Origin: a virus
Reading direction: 5' to 3' (one strand)
Length of the DNA: 64,000 bases
IMG/VR virus record: IMGVR_UViG_3300010354_000047
Coordinates: 1 to 64,000 of that record
Position numbers and translations under genes: made by a program. A model generated the notes under the pieces. The model made no database searches, was not told the DNA's origin, and saw only the letters and a list, made by a program, of their open reading frames with translations. Shown here piece after piece: positions 11,936-50,338 of this stretch (its first letter is position 1; the number at the start of each line of letters is the position of its first letter).

Positions 11936-13015
11936 ATGGCAACATCTGTTTTACAACGACCAAAGGCAAATACCTGGGAGTCGTTCTGTCAGTGGGTAAC
12001 TTCCACTAACAACCGGTTGTACGTCGGTTGGTTCGGTACGCTCATGATTCCGTGCCTTCTTGCGGCAACAATCTGCTTCATTGTGGCTTTTATTGCAGCG
12101 CCGCCCGTCGATATTGACGGAATACGTGAACCAGTTGCTGGTTCTCTCATGTACGGCAACAACATCATCTCTGGTGCCGTAGTACCAAGTTCAAATGCGA
12201 TTGGATTGCATTTTTATCCAATCTGGGAAGCTGCTTCCCTTGATGAGTGGCTCTACAATGGAGGCCCTTATCAATTAGTTGTTTTTCACTTCCTTATTGG
12301 CGTCTTCTGCTACATGGGTCGTGAATGGGAACTTTCATACCGTCTAGGTATGCGCCCTTGGATCATGGTTGCTTACTCGGCTCCTGTAGCCGCTGCAACT
12401 GCTGTGTTCCTGATCTATCCTTTCGGTCAAGGGTCATTTTCTGACGGAATGCCCCTCGGGATCAGTGGGACCTTCAACTATATGATTGTTTTCACTGCTG
12501 AGCACAACATTCTGATGCACCCCTTCCACATGCTGGGTGTGGCCGGTGTCTTCGGTGGTTCTTTGTTCTCTGCCATGCATGGAAGCCTCGTAACCAGTTC
12601 ACTGGTGCGTGAAACCACTGAGAATGAAAGCCAGAACTACGGTTACAAGTTCGGTCAAGAGGAAGAAACGTACAATATTGTTGCTGCTCATGGGTATTTC
12701 GGAAGACTAATCTTCCAGTACGCCAGCTTCAACAACTCCCGTTCGCTTCACTTCTTCCTTGCAGCTTGGCCTGTGGTTGGAATCTGGTTTGCTGCTCTTG
12801 GAGTTAGCTCCATGGCATTCAACCTGAATGGGTTTAATTTCAACTCCAGCATCATGGATTCGCAAGGTAGGGTGATACCTACCTGGGCAGACATCCTAAA
12901 TCGCGCTAATTTGGGAATCGAAGTTGTCCACGAAAGAAATGCCCATAATTTCCCACTGGACCTCGCTGCTACCACGTCAACCCAAGTTGCTTTAACTGCT
13001 CCTGTGGTTGGCTGA
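11936..13015 (+). CDS. psbA: Photosystem II reaction centre protein D1
   Basis: Full-length D1: [49 protein letters not shown]; Mn-cluster ligands intact. Confidence 0.99.
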
Positions 13016-46695: not shown

Positions 46696-46780
46696 TCCAC
46701 AGGGTAAAACCTTTCAACTTAACTCGGTAAAAAACAAGTCCGAGAGCAAACAACTTTTGAAGTCCTTCACACATACTAAC

Positions 46781-47254
46781 ATGTCCCTTAATATCGCACC
46801 CGTTTACGGTAAGCAGTTTATCCGCTACGCGGAAACCTGGGAAGCCGCAACCGACAACGAAGACGGTGATGTAGGAGTCGTTGAGATTCCTGAATTCGCC
46901 GTTGTTGCTTACGCAACCTACGCTGGCTCCAACAAAGTTTGCGCCCCTGGCGACCTCGATACTTTTGAAGGCGCTGTTGTTGGTGTAAACCAGGCTTACA
47001 TTCCGACCTCCTTGGCTCAGCCTTACACCGCTCGCCAAGCTTCCATTGCTACCAGCGGTTCCTTGATCGTTGAAGTCAGCGCCGATACCGTCGCTTCTTT
47101 CGCTCTCAACACACAACTCGCTGTTGGCCCGAACGGAAAGGCCCTCCCCGCCGCTGATGGTGGAATCGAGGTTACCGTTGACGGAACTACTCCTCTCATT
47201 CGTGAGATTGTTGAGATCGGTGGTCGCACCATCCTGATCGTTTCCTTCAACTGA
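46781..47254 (+). CDS. Head decoration/cement protein
   Basis: Small A/G/V-rich protein just upstream of MCP; G.L.VE...GKA. Confidence 0.65.
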   Translation: MSLNIAPVYGKQFIRYAETWEAATDNEDGDVGVVEIPEFAVVAYATYAGSNKVCAPGDLDTFEGAVVGVNQAYIPTSLAQPYTARQASIATSGSLIVEVSADTVASFALNTQLAVGPNGKALPAADGGIEVTVDGTTPLIREIVEIGGRTILIVSFN

Positions 47255-47278
47255 GCCTCTTCAGTTTTTCTCTCCCGA

Positions 47279-47304
47279 GAGCTTCGAAAGGGGCTCTTTT
47301 TTTT
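47279..47304 (+). terminator. Rho-independent terminator
   Basis: GAGCTTC-GAAA-GGGGCTC followed by T8. Confidence 0.8.
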
Positions 47305-47420
47305 GTGCGGCGGGGAAAAGTGGGGTATAACTTGGTAGCTTGCGAGTCGAATCTTTTCGAACGCAGGCCGAATTGCGAAAGCAATTCTTGAAGTCAACCT
47401 AGAAAAGGAAATCATTAATT

Positions 47421-50338
47421 ATGATGAATCTTCAACAAACCTACGCTGGCGTGGATTAAAAAGGTCCCTTTCTTCAGTAATGAAGATCGAAAACTGGGTG
47501 AATTGCTGAAACGCTGAGATGCCAATCAGCAGCCAAGTTTACTTCGGGTCCCTACCGTTAAGATAGGGTGAAGTAAAAAGGTTCAACGACTAGGAGATGA
47601 CTGACCCAAGAATAAATCTCCCACGAGTGCCCAGCTCCATGGATTATTTTCCTTCATTGAAGACCTTCTCCCGAACAGAAGATCGAAACCCGACTTTTAC
47701 TCGGAAAGACACCACATTATACCGAAATGTGTTGGGGGCTCCGATGAAGAAGAAAACCTCATTTACCTCACACCTTCAGAGCACCTGATCGCTCACCAGC
47801 TTCTGGTTAAAACCTTCCCGGAACATTCAAAGCTCAAATCCGCACTGTGGATTATGAGTCACAAGAACGGAAAAAGTTTAACCCCAAAGGAATACGAAGA
47901 ACTTAGGCTTTTATGCTCAGAAACCCTTTCCACTCGGAGAAAGGGGGGTACTTCTCAAGAGACGAAAGATAAGATTAGTAAGATTCACAAAGGTAAGACG
48001 ATTTCAAAAGAGCACAAATTGGCAAACAGCTCGGCTGTCAGAAATTATCTTTTGAATACACCGGAAGGGAGAAGCCAAGCCCAAAGAGGAGGAAAGACTA
48101 CTGGAAAACTCCCTTGGTGGAATAAAGACGGAATTACTAGACGATCTTACGAGTCACCAGGGGAAGGTCGGGTGAGGGGCAGAGGCAAGGGAATTAGCCC
48201 TGCAATGGCCGAAGCGGGATCAAAGAACAAAGGAAAAGTTTACTGGTCCCGAGTTAATTCTTCAGGTGAAATAGAGAGGAGGCGAAGTTTCTCCCCTCCT
48301 TCCGAAGAGTGGACTAGAGGTTATAATCCGGGATGATGATATAGTCTGAACTTTTCAGAATCCAATGAAAAGAGTTAAGGGATAAAAAGCCCTTAAGATA
48401 ACAATTTGCCTATCCTCACAACGCTAGCACAAGGTTTCATGCTCCCGTCTACAAACATCGCAAACTTTATTGCGCCTGTTGTAGACACTCCTACCCGTGC
48501 AGGACGTATTCTGCGCTTTGGTAAGGAACAATTCGCAATCAACGACTTCCGTCGTGCCTATGGAACCAACATTCCCTACGTTCAGAGCCGTTACGACTCT
48601 GAGCCCTACGCCCTCGAACAAGAGGTCGTGGCTTGGGAACTTCCAGAAGAAGTGATCGAGAACGCTGGGGAAGGTCCTGCACAAGTCGACCTCCGGGCGA
48701 TTGAAACAAGGAACGCAATGTCGAGAATCATGAACTCTTATGAGTATACTGTTTCTCAGGCCGTTAGCGTTACTGGTTCCTACAACCCCTATGAGCCCTG
48801 GAACACCGTTCCCGGTTCTCAAACTGGCCTCGGCTTCGAAACCTGGACAGATTTCAACACCGCCTATGCAGCCGCTTCCGGTCCTGCTGCGTGGTCCGCT
48901 CTTTCTTCGAACCCCATCGAAGACGTGAAGACCCTTAAGCGTTCCGTTGCTAACCAGATCGGTATTCGTCCGAACTCTGCCGTTCTTGGAACTGCAGTTT
49001 TTGACCTGTTGCTGACCAACCAGGCGATCCTTGAGCGTATCAAGTACACCAGCGCTGACAGCATCGACACTGACGTCATTGCTCGCTACTTCGGTCTCGA
49101 GCGTGGTGTTCGCGTTGCAGAAGGTCGTTACTTGGCACAAGACGGAACCCTCCAACCGGTATTCCCGGCTAACGGAATCCTCCTGTTCTACAGCCCGAGT
49201 GGTCCTTCTGATTCCATCATGCCTGCTGGTGGTGCTAACGCCGCAACTCCGGCTTTTGCCTACACGTATGTTAATAACATCGTTCCATTCAAGCGAGTTA
49301 GATGCGTGGTTTGACGGTAACGTCAAATTACCTGCCTGATCAGCAGGTCAATGGGGTGAATTGCTGGGACACCTGACGGTTTCAGAAATGAAATACAAGG
49401 TAATCAGCAGCCAAGTTTACTTCGTCGAATCAGGACTAAACTGATTGAAGTAAAAAGGTTCAACGACTAGACGATGAGTTTCGACAACAATAACTCGTCC
49501 ACGAGTGCCCCACTCCTTAAATGCTTTTACCGAAACAAGTACGAAAGATGCTACTGGGAACTAATCTCAGTAACACCTTCCGAGAAACCAAGAACCTTTA
49601 AAACTGAAGAGCACCACATAATCCCTAAGTGCTTAGGGGGACATCCTCGGGAAAAGAGCAACCTTAGCTACCCAACTCCGAGACAACATTTCGTTTTACA
49701 TCGATTGTTGAATAAGATGTTTCCAGATCACGAAGGACTTTTCTACGCTATATTCCGAATGAGCTGTTCGGGAAATAGCAGAGTTTACTCCCACTTAAAG
49801 TTGAACTATGTTCGATCAAGTGAGCATAACCAAAGAATCTCTGAATCTCTACGAGGACAGAGGTTGACGGAAACTCGGAAGAAAAAAAAATCCCGTGCTA
49901 GACTCGCCTCCCCAAATACCTTAAGCGGTGAAGATCACCCCAACTCTAACAAAGACTTAGAAAGTCGAAAAGAAGAGATAAGAAGTGTCTGGTTGGAAAA
50001 TGGCAAACCGGGAGACGTAAAACTAGGCCAATTTCTTGGCTTAGGAACAGGAAAGAAAGGTTACAGGTGTAAAACTCTTCAAAGGTTCATAAAAGAATTT
50101 AAGGATGAAGATATAGTCTGAACTCCGTAAAAATACGGAGAAGTGAAGGATAAAGAGCCTTCGCGTTAACAAATTTGATCAACTCACCGGAACACCCGCT
50201 GTCCGCCCTGAGTACTACATCCGTGAGCGTCGCGTTGTCCGCGCAGAAATCACTATCGAGCGTGTGATCAACCTGGTCGGCCTTGGTGCAACTGGTCTTA
50301 TCGGTTCTGGCGCTATGATCACCGACATCCTGTCCTGA
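47421..50338 (+). CDS. Major capsid protein, three exons: 47421-47456, 48409-49267, 50178-50338 (351 aa spliced)
   Basis: Joins restore MMNLQQTYAGVD|PILTTLAQG and PAFAYT-Y-QLTG...TDILS*; total 1056 nt in frame. Confidence 0.9.
47457..48408 (+). mobile_element. Group I intron 1 in MCP (probably IA type)
   Basis: 5' exon ends in U with P1 GGAU/GUCC; P AATTGCTGAAA, Q AATCAGCAGCC, R GTTCAACGACTA, S GATATAGTC; P3 ctgggtg/tgcccag; terminal G 48408. Confidence 0.92.
47639..48336 (+). pseudogene. Intron-encoded HNH endonuclease with start codon out of frame
   Basis: ERHHIIPKCVGGSDEEENLIYLTPSEHLIAH is in the frame of ORF 47854; ATG 47639 needs one extra nt at the T run 47647-47650; NUMOD3-like ETKDKIS. 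Confidence 0.75.
49268..50177 (+). mobile_element. Group I intron 2 in MCP
   Basis: P1 CACGUAU/AUGCGUG with U.G at the splice site; P AATTGCTGGGA, Q AATCAGCAGCC, R GTTCAACGACTA, S AAGATATAGTC; terminal G 50177. Confidence 0.92.
49474..50121 (+). CDS. Intron-encoded HNH homing endonuclease
   Basis: EEHHIIPKCLGG...NL...TPRQHFVLH; NUMOD3-like segments; GEDHPN. Confidence 0.85.
   Translation: MSFDNNNSSTSAPLLKCFYRNKYERCYWELISVTPSEKPRTFKTEEHHIIPKCLGGHPREKSNLSYPTPRQHFVLHRLLNKMFPDHEGLFYAIFRMSCSGNSRVYSHLKLNYVRSSEHNQRISESLRGQRLTETRKKKKSRARLASPNTLSGEDHPNSNKDLESRKEEIRSVWLENGKPGDVKLGQFLGLGTGKKGYRCKTLQRFIKEFKDEDIV

What the first reader, a model, noticed from the sequence alone, without database searches (positions are those of the whole stretch)
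47421..50338. Major capsid gene split by two sister group I introns
Seen: the ORF track misses both ends of the MCP; two introns (952 and 910 nt) with exact U|...G| boundaries restore a 351-aa protein. The ribozyme cores share long identical blocks (AATCAGCAGCCAAGTTTACTTCG, GAAGTAAAAAGGTTCAACGACTAG, GATATAGTCTGAACT) but have different P1 guides and different HNH ORFs in P8. Known: phage group I introns mostly occupy DNA-metabolism genes; structural-gene cases are fewer. Inference: one ribozyme lineage retargeted within the same gene, making the most abundant virion protein depend on double self-splicing.
Basis: partly seen in the sequence, partly recalled or inferred. Interest (0 to 1): 0.8.

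Follow-up and report, generated by a model that had tools for sequence, protein, structure and literature searches.

The report
Cyanophage capsid gene with two introns
The main shell-protein gene of this uncultured freshwater cyanophage really is interrupted by two mobile self-splicing (group I) introns, a good new example of a known kind of selfish element in a phage lineage whose capsid gene is an intron hot spot.

Summary
Observation confirmed. Removing 47457-48408 (952 nt) and 49268-50177 (910 nt) gives a 1056-nt frame. Its 351-aa product aligns end to end, with no gap at either junction, to the uninterrupted capsid protein of Synechococcus phage S-CBWM1 (67% identity). Both junction peptides are contiguous in 78 and 80 of 80 related metagenomic alleles.

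Both inserts match Rfam group I (61.4 bits, and 45.3 bits at E 1e-9). Both have a U before the 5' cut, a terminal G, and every core helix. The fold has strong covariation in 55 relatives.

A lake metatranscriptome contig joins 47456 directly to 48409 with no mismatch, so intron 1 is spliced in nature. Splicing of intron 2 was not seen.

Interpretation partly supported. The two introns belong to one family but are not exclusive sisters. Each has closer relatives at the same site in other phages.

The HNH gene of intron 2 is intact; that of intron 1 is frameshifted.

In relatives the same family occupies at least 15 sites of this gene, up to 13 in one record.

Capsid-gene introns are already in print (LittleE, Tuc2009, crAss-like phages). 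This scan had already noted this hot-spot lineage on other DNA.

Verdict: new member of a known kind.

The parts
47421..47456 (+). Capsid gene exon 1 (12 codons, ends in U)
   Evidence: Aligns to residues 1-12 of S-CBWM1 gp175. An RNA contig runs from 47358 to 47456 and then jumps to 48409.
47457..48408 (+). Group I intron 1 (952 nt), at site 36 of the coding sequence. Starts with an in-frame TAA and ends in G.
   Evidence: Rfam RF00028 45.3 bits, E 1.2e-9, below the gathering score. Helices found (and by hand): P1 47453-56/47464-67, P2 47471-76/47481-86, P3 47494-500/47628-34, P4 47504-09/47526-31, P6a 47538-45/47570-77, P7 47588-92/48342-46, P7.1 47593-98/47616-21, P8 47641-47/48323-29, P9 48351-57/48366-72, P9.1 48375-81/48390-96. 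P5 is only about 2 pairs. The RNA joint 47456>48409 was seen once.
47597..48336 (+). Intron 1 HNH homing-endonuclease gene, frameshifted. ATG 47597 opens one frame. The HNH frame (open 47605-48336) has no ATG, GTG or TTG before 47854.
   Evidence: Site-36 relatives start with GTG at the same place and stay in one frame. The frames swap at the T-run 47647-47650. phrog_655 homing endonuclease E 2.9e-41. A second DNA run has one more T there, at depth 4.6 only.
48409..49267 (+). Capsid gene exon 2 (286 codons plus 1 base, ends in U)
   Evidence: Pfam Phage_cap_E E 6e-9, 35.8 bits, over its cut-off. phrog_1005 major head protein E 3.5e-42. Alignment.
49268..50177 (+). Group I intron 2 (910 nt), at site 895 of the coding sequence (inside codon 299). 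Ends in G.
   Evidence: Rfam RF00028 61.4 bits, over gathering score 50. Helices (and by hand): P1 49263-67/49304-08, P3 49352-58/49506-12, P4 49362-67/49404-09, P5 49372-74/49398-400, P5a 49379-84/49389-94 (GAAA loop), P6a 49416-23/49447-54, P6b 49428-33/49441-46, P7 49465-69/50114-18, P7.1 49470-72+49476-80/49492-99, P8 49514-22/50097-105, P9 50123-29/50134-40, P9.1 50143-49/50158-64. A possible 3-bp P10 pairs 49301-03 with 50178-80. No RNA joint was seen.
49474..50121 (+). Intron 2 HNH homing-endonuclease gene, intact (215 aa). The ATG lies in the bulge of P7.1 and the stop TGA lies inside the 3' strand of P7.
   Evidence: phrog_655 E 1.1e-30. Full-length relatives at 61-76% identity sit in six site-895 introns of other contigs. 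No Pfam or NCBIfam family at E<=0.01.
50178..50338 (+). Capsid gene exon 3 (52 codons plus 2 bases completing codon 299, then the stop)
   Evidence: Aligns to the C-terminus of S-CBWM1 gp175 through the last residue.

Best explanation
The window comes from an uncultured cyanophage of the S-CBWM1 type: it carries psbA and has the same capsid and tail-tube gene order. Its only major capsid gene has been invaded at two sites by mobile group I introns of one widespread family.

How it works. Steps 1-2 are inferred from anatomy, and the joint itself was shown once for intron 1.
1. On the late pre-mRNA each intron folds into the P3-P9 core.
2. The last exon U pairs with a G of the intron's own guide in P1. 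A free guanosine attacks there, and the freed exon end then attacks behind the terminal G. The exons are joined and the 351-aa frame is restored.
3. In-frame stops at or just inside each intron (TAA as the first intron codon of intron 1; TGA after 15 codons in intron 2) keep ribosomes out of the cores. This step is inferred.

Spread is inferred from the family. Each intron carries an HNH nuclease whose C-terminal part is specific for its site. In mixed infections this nuclease would cut or nick intron-less capsid alleles, so that repair copies the intron in.

Intron 2 is still equipped for this. The nuclease gene of intron 1 is broken by a frameshift, so intron 1 is probably immobile on its own, a usual late stage of the homing cycle.

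The introns are selfish passengers and not a built-in control. The closest 80 relatives make the same protein without introns at these two sites.
For: Junctions:
- The spliced product is colinear with S-CBWM1 gp175.
- The junction peptides are contiguous in 78/80 and 80/80 related loci.

Ribozymes:
- Rfam hits.
- All helices are located in both introns.
- The family fold was recovered by RNAalifold on 55 distinct ORF-less relatives, with 34 of 46 pairs compensated.
- 97.8% of cells are paired against 33-45% when partners are slid, and 0 of 500 shuffles reach the observed values.
- The mini-introns of relatives score 80-101 bits with Rfam.

Splicing:
- Record 17 of RNA run X3 is 151 nt with 0 mismatches. 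It covers 47358-47456 and then 48409-48460, skipping exactly 952 nt.
- DNA runs X1 and X2 carry the intron-bearing form across three or four of the four borders, and none carries the joined form.

Mobility:
- Both ORFs match phrog_655 homing endonuclease.
- Nuclease lineages are site-specific.
- ORF-bearing and ORF-less forms occur at the same sites in relatives.
- Intron-bearing alleles have exon bases that fit P1 (GTGGAT, CACGT), where the intron-less consensus has GTAGAT and CACCT.

Cyanophage identity: uninterrupted psbA at 12017-12919, and synteny with S-CBWM1.
Against: - Intron 1 is below Rfam's gathering score and its P5 is reduced to about two pairs.
- The only RNA evidence is one low-depth contig (2.9) from an environmental library. 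That library could hold DNA, and the contig could come from an unseen strain with identical exons and no intron.
- No joint was seen for intron 2. RNA contigs lie inside its 5' part (49285-49614), which may be precursor, excised intron, nuclease mRNA or DNA.
- Nuclease activity, target sites and homing are inferred only. Neither ORF reaches a Pfam HNH model at E<=0.01. The best solved-structure hit is a pyocin DNase at E 0.65.
- The frameshift in the intron 1 ORF rests on one assembly, although it is at depth about 15 in its probable source run.
Confidence: 0.88

Rival explanations
1. Within-genome duplication. One intron copied itself from one site of this capsid gene to the other in this phage, changing its guide. 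This would make the two true sisters.
For: The two share the same core, the same P6a stem (9+8 bases) and three identical blocks.
Against: Each intron, together with its nuclease, has closer relatives at its own site in other contigs than in the other window intron. Most of each shared block is the invariant family core, and the P6a variant also occurs in other introns. Introns of one contig at different sites are barely more alike than those of different contigs, 63.5% against 61%.
Confidence: 0.07
2. Adaptive control. The two introns are kept because splicing times or throttles capsid production, or because the nucleases serve the phage in competition with co-infecting relatives.
For: The capsid gene is a hot spot in this lineage. 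Marker exclusion by intron nucleases in co-infection is described for SPO1 (passage of PMC12908238).
Against: 73 of the 80 closest alleles are unbroken from residue 1, and none of the 80 is interrupted at these two sites. Intron number varies from 0 to 13 among relatives. ORF-less and frameshifted forms are common, as expected of selfish elements in decay. No test of fitness was possible.
Confidence: 0.1
3. Intron 2 (or both introns) is a dead insertion. The gene is broken in this genome, which would be a defective or mis-assembled record.
For: No RNA joint was found for intron 2. The record is called linear and 61% complete.
Against: Intron 2 has the better ribozyme score and an intact nuclease gene, and all three exons are free of stops or shifts. 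The intron-bearing arrangement is held by contigs of two DNA runs from different studies, across three of four borders in X2 and all four in X1. Site-895 introns recur in 16 intervals of other contigs, each with an open capsid frame.
Confidence: 0.04

Closest known systems
Group I-type intron in the major capsid gene of mycobacteriophage LittleE (Pope et al. 2013, PMC3706429; passages read). The same paper cites a capsid-gene intron in lactococcal phage Tuc2009.
   Same: A mobile intron with a U|...G| border inside the most highly expressed virion gene. It carries a homing-endonuclease gene, is absent from close relatives, and was shown to be spliced.
   Different: LittleE has a single intron. 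Its endonuclease is LAGLIDADG-like and on the opposite strand, and its host group differs. Here there are two introns of one family with same-strand HNH genes that overlap the ribozyme core.
Capsid genes of crAss-like phages, Delta and Zeta groups (Yutin et al. 2021, PMC7886860; passages read)
   Same: Group I introns sit in the MCP gene. One Zeta-group MCP is split into five fragments, so several introns in one capsid gene are in print.
   Different: Those were recognised by endonuclease domains, not by ribozyme models. They come from gut phages of Bacteroidetes, with no RNA evidence in the passages read. Their supplementary figures and tables could not be opened.
Staphylococcus phage Twort orf142: three group I introns in one gene (Landthaler and Shub 1999; seen only as a reference-list entry, content recalled)
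   Same: Several related group I introns in one phage gene.
   Different: A different phage and gene. Relatedness to this family was not tested.
Nicking HNH intron endonucleases I-HmuI, I-BasI and I-PfoP3I (the last from cyanophage Pf-WMP3). Seen as reference-list entries and a review passage of PMC12908238.
   Same: HNH-type nuclease encoded inside a phage group I intron. The presumed gene-conversion homing is the same.
   Different: Those sit in DNA-polymerase genes. Sequence relationship to the window's proteins was not tested, and whether these nick or cut both strands is unknown.
psbA intron with a homing endonuclease in S-CBWM1 (passage of PMC8557907)
   Same: The nearest cultured relative of this phage also carries group I introns.
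   Different: The gene is different, and the two Rfam hits in S-CBWM1 lack this family's core motifs. In the window's genome psbA is uninterrupted.
Earlier findings of this scan on the same capsid lineage (e1-5714319, e1-5381985, e1-5381997, e1-6012428, e1-6111019)
   Same: The same capsid family and the same kind of introns. Those notes report 0-13 introns per gene and micro-exons down to 5 bases, which my own mapping reproduced.
   Different: The window's allele is a light case: two introns, at sites 36 and 895. No locus that I examined has that combination.

Membership tests
Group I intron (Rfam RF00028) | Conserved core fold P3-P9 scored by the covariance model | tested here: met
   Intron 2 scores 61.4 bits against gathering score 50. 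Intron 1 scores 45.3 bits, E 1.2e-9, below gathering. However, all core helices are present and it belongs to a family whose fold has covariation.
Group I intron (Rfam RF00028) | The last exon base is U, paired with G of an internal guide (P1) | tested here: met
   GGAU 47453-56 pairs with GUCC 47464-67. CACGU 49263-67 pairs with GCGUG 49304-08. Same-site relatives keep these guides.
Group I intron (Rfam RF00028) | Terminal G of the intron | tested here: met
   G at 48408 and at 50177. 181 of 189 intron intervals in relatives also allow U|...G|.
Group I intron (Rfam RF00028) | Exons joined exactly at the predicted borders in RNA | tested here: inconclusive
   Intron 1: one RNA contig joins 47456 to 48409, and the joined form is absent from two DNA runs. 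Intron 2: no contig covers the junction.
Group I intron (Rfam RF00028) | Self-splicing with guanosine and Mg, without protein | not testable with these tools
   Needs in vitro transcription and splicing.
Subgroup IA of group I introns | Extra hairpin(s) P7.1/P7.2 between P7 and P3' (definition recalled) | tested here: inconclusive
   A hairpin at that place is present in both introns and covaries in all 3 pairs counted. No subgroup-specific models were available.
HNH homing endonuclease | HNH (beta-beta-alpha-metal) nuclease motif | tested here: inconclusive
   HH...N...H...H is visible in both. phrog_655 gives E 1e-30 and 3e-41, and phrog_12434 'HNH endonuclease' gives E 4e-5 and 7e-14. But there is no Pfam family at E<=0.01 apart from a sub-threshold NUMOD3, only a sub-cut-off IscB HNH-region hit, and a PDB best hit of E 0.65.
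HNH homing endonuclease | Intact reading frame | tested here: met
   Met for intron 2 (215 aa). Not met for intron 1, where the start frame and the HNH frame differ.
HNH homing endonuclease | Cuts or nicks the intron-less allele at the insertion site | not testable with these tools
   Needs protein and a target DNA.
HK97-type major capsid protein (Pfam Phage_cap_E, PHROG 1005) | Family profile match and colinearity with an annotated capsid protein | tested here: met
   PF03864 35.8 bits, over cut-off 22.9. phrog_1005 E 3.5e-42. 67% identity over the full length to S-CBWM1 'major capsid protein'.

The most novel reading that the evidence does not exclude
The window shows a light allele (2 introns) of a lineage-wide colonisation that I could not find in print. 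One modular group I family has taken at least 15 sites of a 1056-nt capsid gene, 13 of them within the first 356 bases. One record has up to 13 ribozymes in the gene, with exons as short as 5 bases.

Site-specific P1-P2 'guide' modules and site-specific nuclease tails sit on a shared catalytic core. This amounts to natural retargeting of one ribozyme and one nuclease scaffold many times over. The tight clustering may arise because ORF-less introns hitch-hike in the co-conversion tracts of neighbours that still have a nuclease.
Probability: 0.55. Interest if true: 0.75.

Novelty: new member of a known kind. Interest (0 to 1): 0.45.

Why it matters
For annotation: gene callers cut this capsid gene to a 302-aa fragment. 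Capsid genes are widely used as phage marker genes, so such introns distort gene calls, clustering and primer-based surveys.

For biology: it is a clean case, with environmental RNA support for one junction, of a virion gene that must be spliced twice for the phage to make any shell at all. It catches the two introns at different stages of the homing cycle, one nuclease intact and one frameshifted.

Its wider value lies in the lineage. The many same-gene sites, each with its own guide and nuclease tail on a shared core, form a natural series for studying how ribozymes and homing nucleases change target. They also allow a test of whether neighbouring introns spread together.

Tried and rejected
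- Inteins were rejected. The inserts have stops in the capsid frame at or just after each border and they fold as ribozymes.
- Free-standing nuclease genes between split capsid genes were rejected, because of the ribozyme cores and the RNA joint.
- Assembly artefact was rejected (two DNA runs of different studies hold the exon-intron borders).
Both introns read TTTACT, 16 bases, then TAAGAT or TAAACT. That is only 8 of 12 matches, and the scan (threshold 9 of 12) does not list it. It found 4 other sites against 2.4 expected. The lead is not supported and not excluded.
- A crude own-versus-foreign test of P1 complementarity over the first 70 intron bases hardly discriminates: mean 5.07 pairs for an intron's own exon against 4.14 for other exons. 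I rely on the positions of the guides and on within-site covariation at sites 281 and 303 instead.
- MAFFT of the two whole introns misaligned their 3' ends. The 3' blocks were read.
- My first junction mapping from tblastn pieces missed micro-exons. It was replaced by a nucleotide-level spliced alignment. That alignment still mis-sets some borders by 1-3 bases and is unreliable around CDS bases 261-283.
- RNA cover: in runs X3 and X5 nothing lies on 47508-48339. Nothing bridges 49034-49284 or 49615-50205. Missing cover is not evidence either way.
- Literature: four full-text searches found no description of introns in the capsid gene of S-CBWM1-type cyanophages, and no phage gene with more than four introns. 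The crAss (PMC7886860) and Jug phage (PMC12880540) supplements may list intron counts that I could not see.
- Not done: subgroup classification of the ribozymes, a formal tree (the introns are mosaic), a homology search of the nucleases in the large protein collections, and structure prediction.
Full report
THE GENE AND ITS JUNCTIONS

The mechanical ORF list has only a 302-aa frame at 48406..49314 where a capsid gene is expected. Its translation matches Pfam Phage_cap_E (E 6e-9, over the cut-off) and PHROG 1005 'major head protein' (E 3.5e-42).

A distant DNA search of GenBank phages matched the capsid gene of Synechococcus phage S-CBWM1. The match came in two pieces: 1911 window bases lie on 971 bases of that record, starting exactly at 48409.

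I joined 47421-47456, 48409-49267 and 50178-50338 in a script. This gives 1056 nt and 351 aa with a single terminal stop. The product aligns from first to last residue with S-CBWM1 gp175 (236/351 identical). The only gaps, 10 positions in two places, lie far from both junctions.

I then looked at the 80 best relatives of exon 2 in IMG/VR, out of 248 found (86-92% aa identity).
- 73 give one unbroken match from residue 1.
- 5 start at residue 4. Four of these lie on contigs that I later found to carry an intron after codon 3; the fifth (L011) was not looked at further.
- 2 are cut by a contig end.
- GVDPILT is contiguous in 78 of 80, and AF[AS]YTYQLT in 80 of 80.

THE INSERTS ARE GROUP I INTRONS

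Rfam's model matches 49280-50140 at 61.4 bits (gathering score 50). It matches 47433-48372 at 45.3 bits (E 1.2e-9, below gathering), in both cases with a long insertion in the P8 loop. No other group I match exists in the 136-kb record.

Both exons end in U and both introns end in G. I could place P1 through P9.1 in both introns (with corrections by hand; coordinates are in 'parts').

The two differ in several ways.
- Intron 1 has a short P1 loop and almost no P5.
- Intron 2 has a 36-base P1 loop, an extra P2.1, and a P5a with a GAAA loop.
- They differ by compensated changes in P3, P6b, P7.1, P8, P9 and P9.1.

Both carry a hairpin between P7 and P3'. As I recall, this marks subgroup IA, but I had no subgroup models.

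SUPPORT FOR THE FOLD FROM RELATIVES

A pattern made of two conserved core blocks found 95 copies on 71 IMG/VR stretches. I aligned 55 distinct ORF-less family members of 215-369 nt. Three further sequences with doubtful borders or odd length were left out, out of 58 listed.

RNAalifold on that alignment recovers P3, P4, P6, P6a, P7.1, P8, P9 and P9.1. 34 of 46 predicted pairs are kept through changes on both sides.

With P7 added as a pseudoknot (51 pairs), 97.8% of cells pair. This compares with 33-45% when partners are slid by 1-3 columns, and none of 500 shuffles reaches any observed measure. P7 and most of P4 never vary, so they say nothing either way. The structure was predicted on the same alignment, which favours it somewhat.

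Rfam scores the mini-introns of two related records at 80-101 bits.

RNA EVIDENCE

The index found seven runs holding part of the stretch, and I laid four.
- In metatranscriptome run X3, one 151-nt contig (depth 2.9, no mismatch) covers 47358-47456 and continues at 48409-48460. The joint 'skips 952, TA..TG' is exactly intron 1.
- DNA run X1, probably the source and so not independent, is continuous through both introns at depth about 15.
- DNA run X2, from another study, holds contigs across 47456/57, 48408/09 and 49267/68.
- Neither DNA run holds the joined form.

So intron 1 is removed at the predicted bases in nature. Three caveats apply: it is one low-depth contig, RNA libraries can hold DNA, and a strain with identical exons and no intron cannot be excluded. 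For intron 2 no contig reaches either junction. X3 contigs lie on 49285-49455 and 49461-49614, inside the intron, and they cannot be interpreted.

THE NUCLEASE GENES

Intron 2 encodes an intact 215-aa protein (49474-50121). Its ATG lies in the bulge of P7.1 and its stop lies in the 3' strand of P7.

In intron 1 the frame with the HH...N...H...H motif is open from 47605 to 48336 but has no ATG, GTG or TTG before 47854. The ATG at 47597, at the place homologous to the intron 2 start, opens another frame that stops at 47788. Five site-36 introns of other contigs start with GVG-type GTG at that same place and stay in one frame. Comparison puts the shift at the T-run 47647-47650. Run X2 has one more T there, but at depth 4.6 and alongside other small indels, so this is only a hint.

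Both proteins match phrog_655 'homing endonuclease' (E 1e-30 and 3e-41). Neither reaches a Pfam or NCBIfam HNH model, and the best solved structure is a pyocin DNase at E 0.65. The two proteins share 29 of 56 residues around the motif and nothing else.

ARE THEY SISTERS?

No, not as an exclusive pair.
- Intron 2 matches site-895 introns of other contigs over its whole length (76% nt over 921 nt in L145). Its protein matches six of them at 61-76% over 212-215 aa. A seventh (L109) matches at only 36%.
- Intron 1 matches five site-36 introns at 80% over its first 182 nt, and its protein matches theirs at 44% over 227 aa.
- The two window introns match each other at 76% over 118 nt plus 22 nt.
- Parts of each core are closer still to introns at other sites: 85% to site-41 introns for intron 1, and 88% to a site-281 intron for intron 2. 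This fits the mosaic of interchangeable P5, P6 and P7.1 modules visible in the alignment.
- Two of the three 'identical blocks' are the family-wide core plus one shared P6a stem.

THE LINEAGE

I aligned the window's spliced CDS to 50 IMG/VR loci that hold both the core pattern and the capsid gene, using a spliced aligner of my own.
- 49 loci have at least one intron, giving 189 intron intervals.
- Almost every interval holds exactly one set of ribozyme motifs.
- 181 of 189 allow U|...G| borders, some at the cost of 1-3 mismatches.
- Well-supported sites lie after CDS bases 9, 36, 41, 75, 93, 150, 160, 192, 273, 281, 303, 318, 356, 895 and 927.
- The window's introns are at sites 36 and 895.
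- 68 of the 95 pattern copies lie in capsid genes.
- Eight sites have both ORF-bearing (about 800-1020 nt) and ORF-less (about 260-370 nt) forms.
- Sites 36 and 41 can be filled together, leaving a 5-base exon.

One record with terminal repeats (G001) has 13 ribozyme cores in a 5.78-kb gene whose joined exons give an open 351-aa frame. Another (L109) has nine in a complete gene.

Short-read assemblies could chain alleles across longer identical exons, so the count per molecule needs long reads. Neighbours separated by 5-38-base exons must be truly adjacent.

Each site has its own guide near the intron's 5' end, with exon and guide co-variation at sites 281 and 303. Intron-less alleles are only 76-81% identical to the window's exons. 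They differ in the P1-forming exon bases at both sites.

WHAT IS KNOWN

Capsid-gene introns are in print for mycobacteriophage LittleE (spliced, with an endonuclease) and for Tuc2009, which that paper cites (passages). In crAss-like phages one MCP is in five fragments (passages). Jug phages carry about 18 group I introns per genome (passages). S-CBWM1 itself has a psbA intron (passage), of another ribozyme family.

This scan had already noted the same capsid lineage on other DNA, with 0-13 introns and RNA support at other sites. I saw these notes only after my own mapping, which agrees with them.

VERDICT

The window's case is a new member of a known kind. The lineage-wide hot spot is the more remarkable thing, but it lies outside this window and the scan already holds it.

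Noticed in passing
L187 (G001:C1:71000-79000, minus strand); also L109, L089, L115, L093, L112: In related IMG/VR records the same capsid gene holds 9 to 13 group I ribozyme cores. Exons are as short as 5, 8-10 and 9 bases. The joined exons of G001 give an open 351-aa frame. Per-molecule counts rest on short-read assemblies.
   Followed up: partly
L089, L091, L109, L113, L115 (intron after CDS base 93, 277 nt): Five loci carry a 277-nt family intron whose only frame-preserving borders leave no terminal G; it ends ...TATATT(A). It also lacks the usual 3' tail. It may be defective or may use a border I could not find. Unexplained.
   Followed up: partly
L188 (G001:C1:18500-23000, minus strand): A second gene of that record is split by three group I introns of another family: Rfam scores 58-83 bits and none of this family's core motifs is present. 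The gene is the homologue of the window genome's uninterrupted 680-aa frame at 108086-110125 of G000.
   Followed up: partly
L087, L088, L094, L097, L105, L107, L108, L110, L114, L118, L120, L122, L125, L126, L128, L133, L136, L140, L142, L153, L154: The exact core pattern of this intron family also occurs on contigs with no protein similarity to the window's genome. Two of them are labelled as giant-virus MAGs (L118, L153). The family is therefore much wider than this phage group.
   Followed up: no
window 50096-50173: The 3' core of intron 2 matches unannotated stretches of six Clostridium perfringens phage records (78-80% over about 80 nt). These are probably unannotated group I introns.
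   Followed up: no
window 47531-47635 and 49409-49511: Both introns give sub-threshold matches (21 and 25 bits against gathering score 44) to Rfam RF02421, a candidate Burkholderia sRNA, over the P6-P7.1 region. That family may itself resemble a piece of a group I core.
   Followed up: no
window 47277-47298: A terminator-like hairpin with a T-run lies between the upstream virion gene (46757-47254) and the capsid gene. The spliced RNA contig begins at 47358, so the capsid gene may have its own transcript start in between.
   Followed up: no
window 12017-12919: An uninterrupted psbA (362-aa open frame, Photo_RC 303 bits). The cultured relative S-CBWM1, in contrast, is reported to have a psbA intron.
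   Followed up: partly
window 47608-48304: DNA run X2, from another study and year, holds a variant of intron 1 with 27 substitutions and five small indels at depth 3-5. This suggests a diverging or decaying nuclease gene in the population, but the depth is too low to trust single differences.
   Followed up: no
L156 (around 8138, minus strand): In one relative a family intron with an HNH frame appears to sit in or before the gene upstream of the capsid gene, the homologue of window 46757-47254.
   Followed up: no
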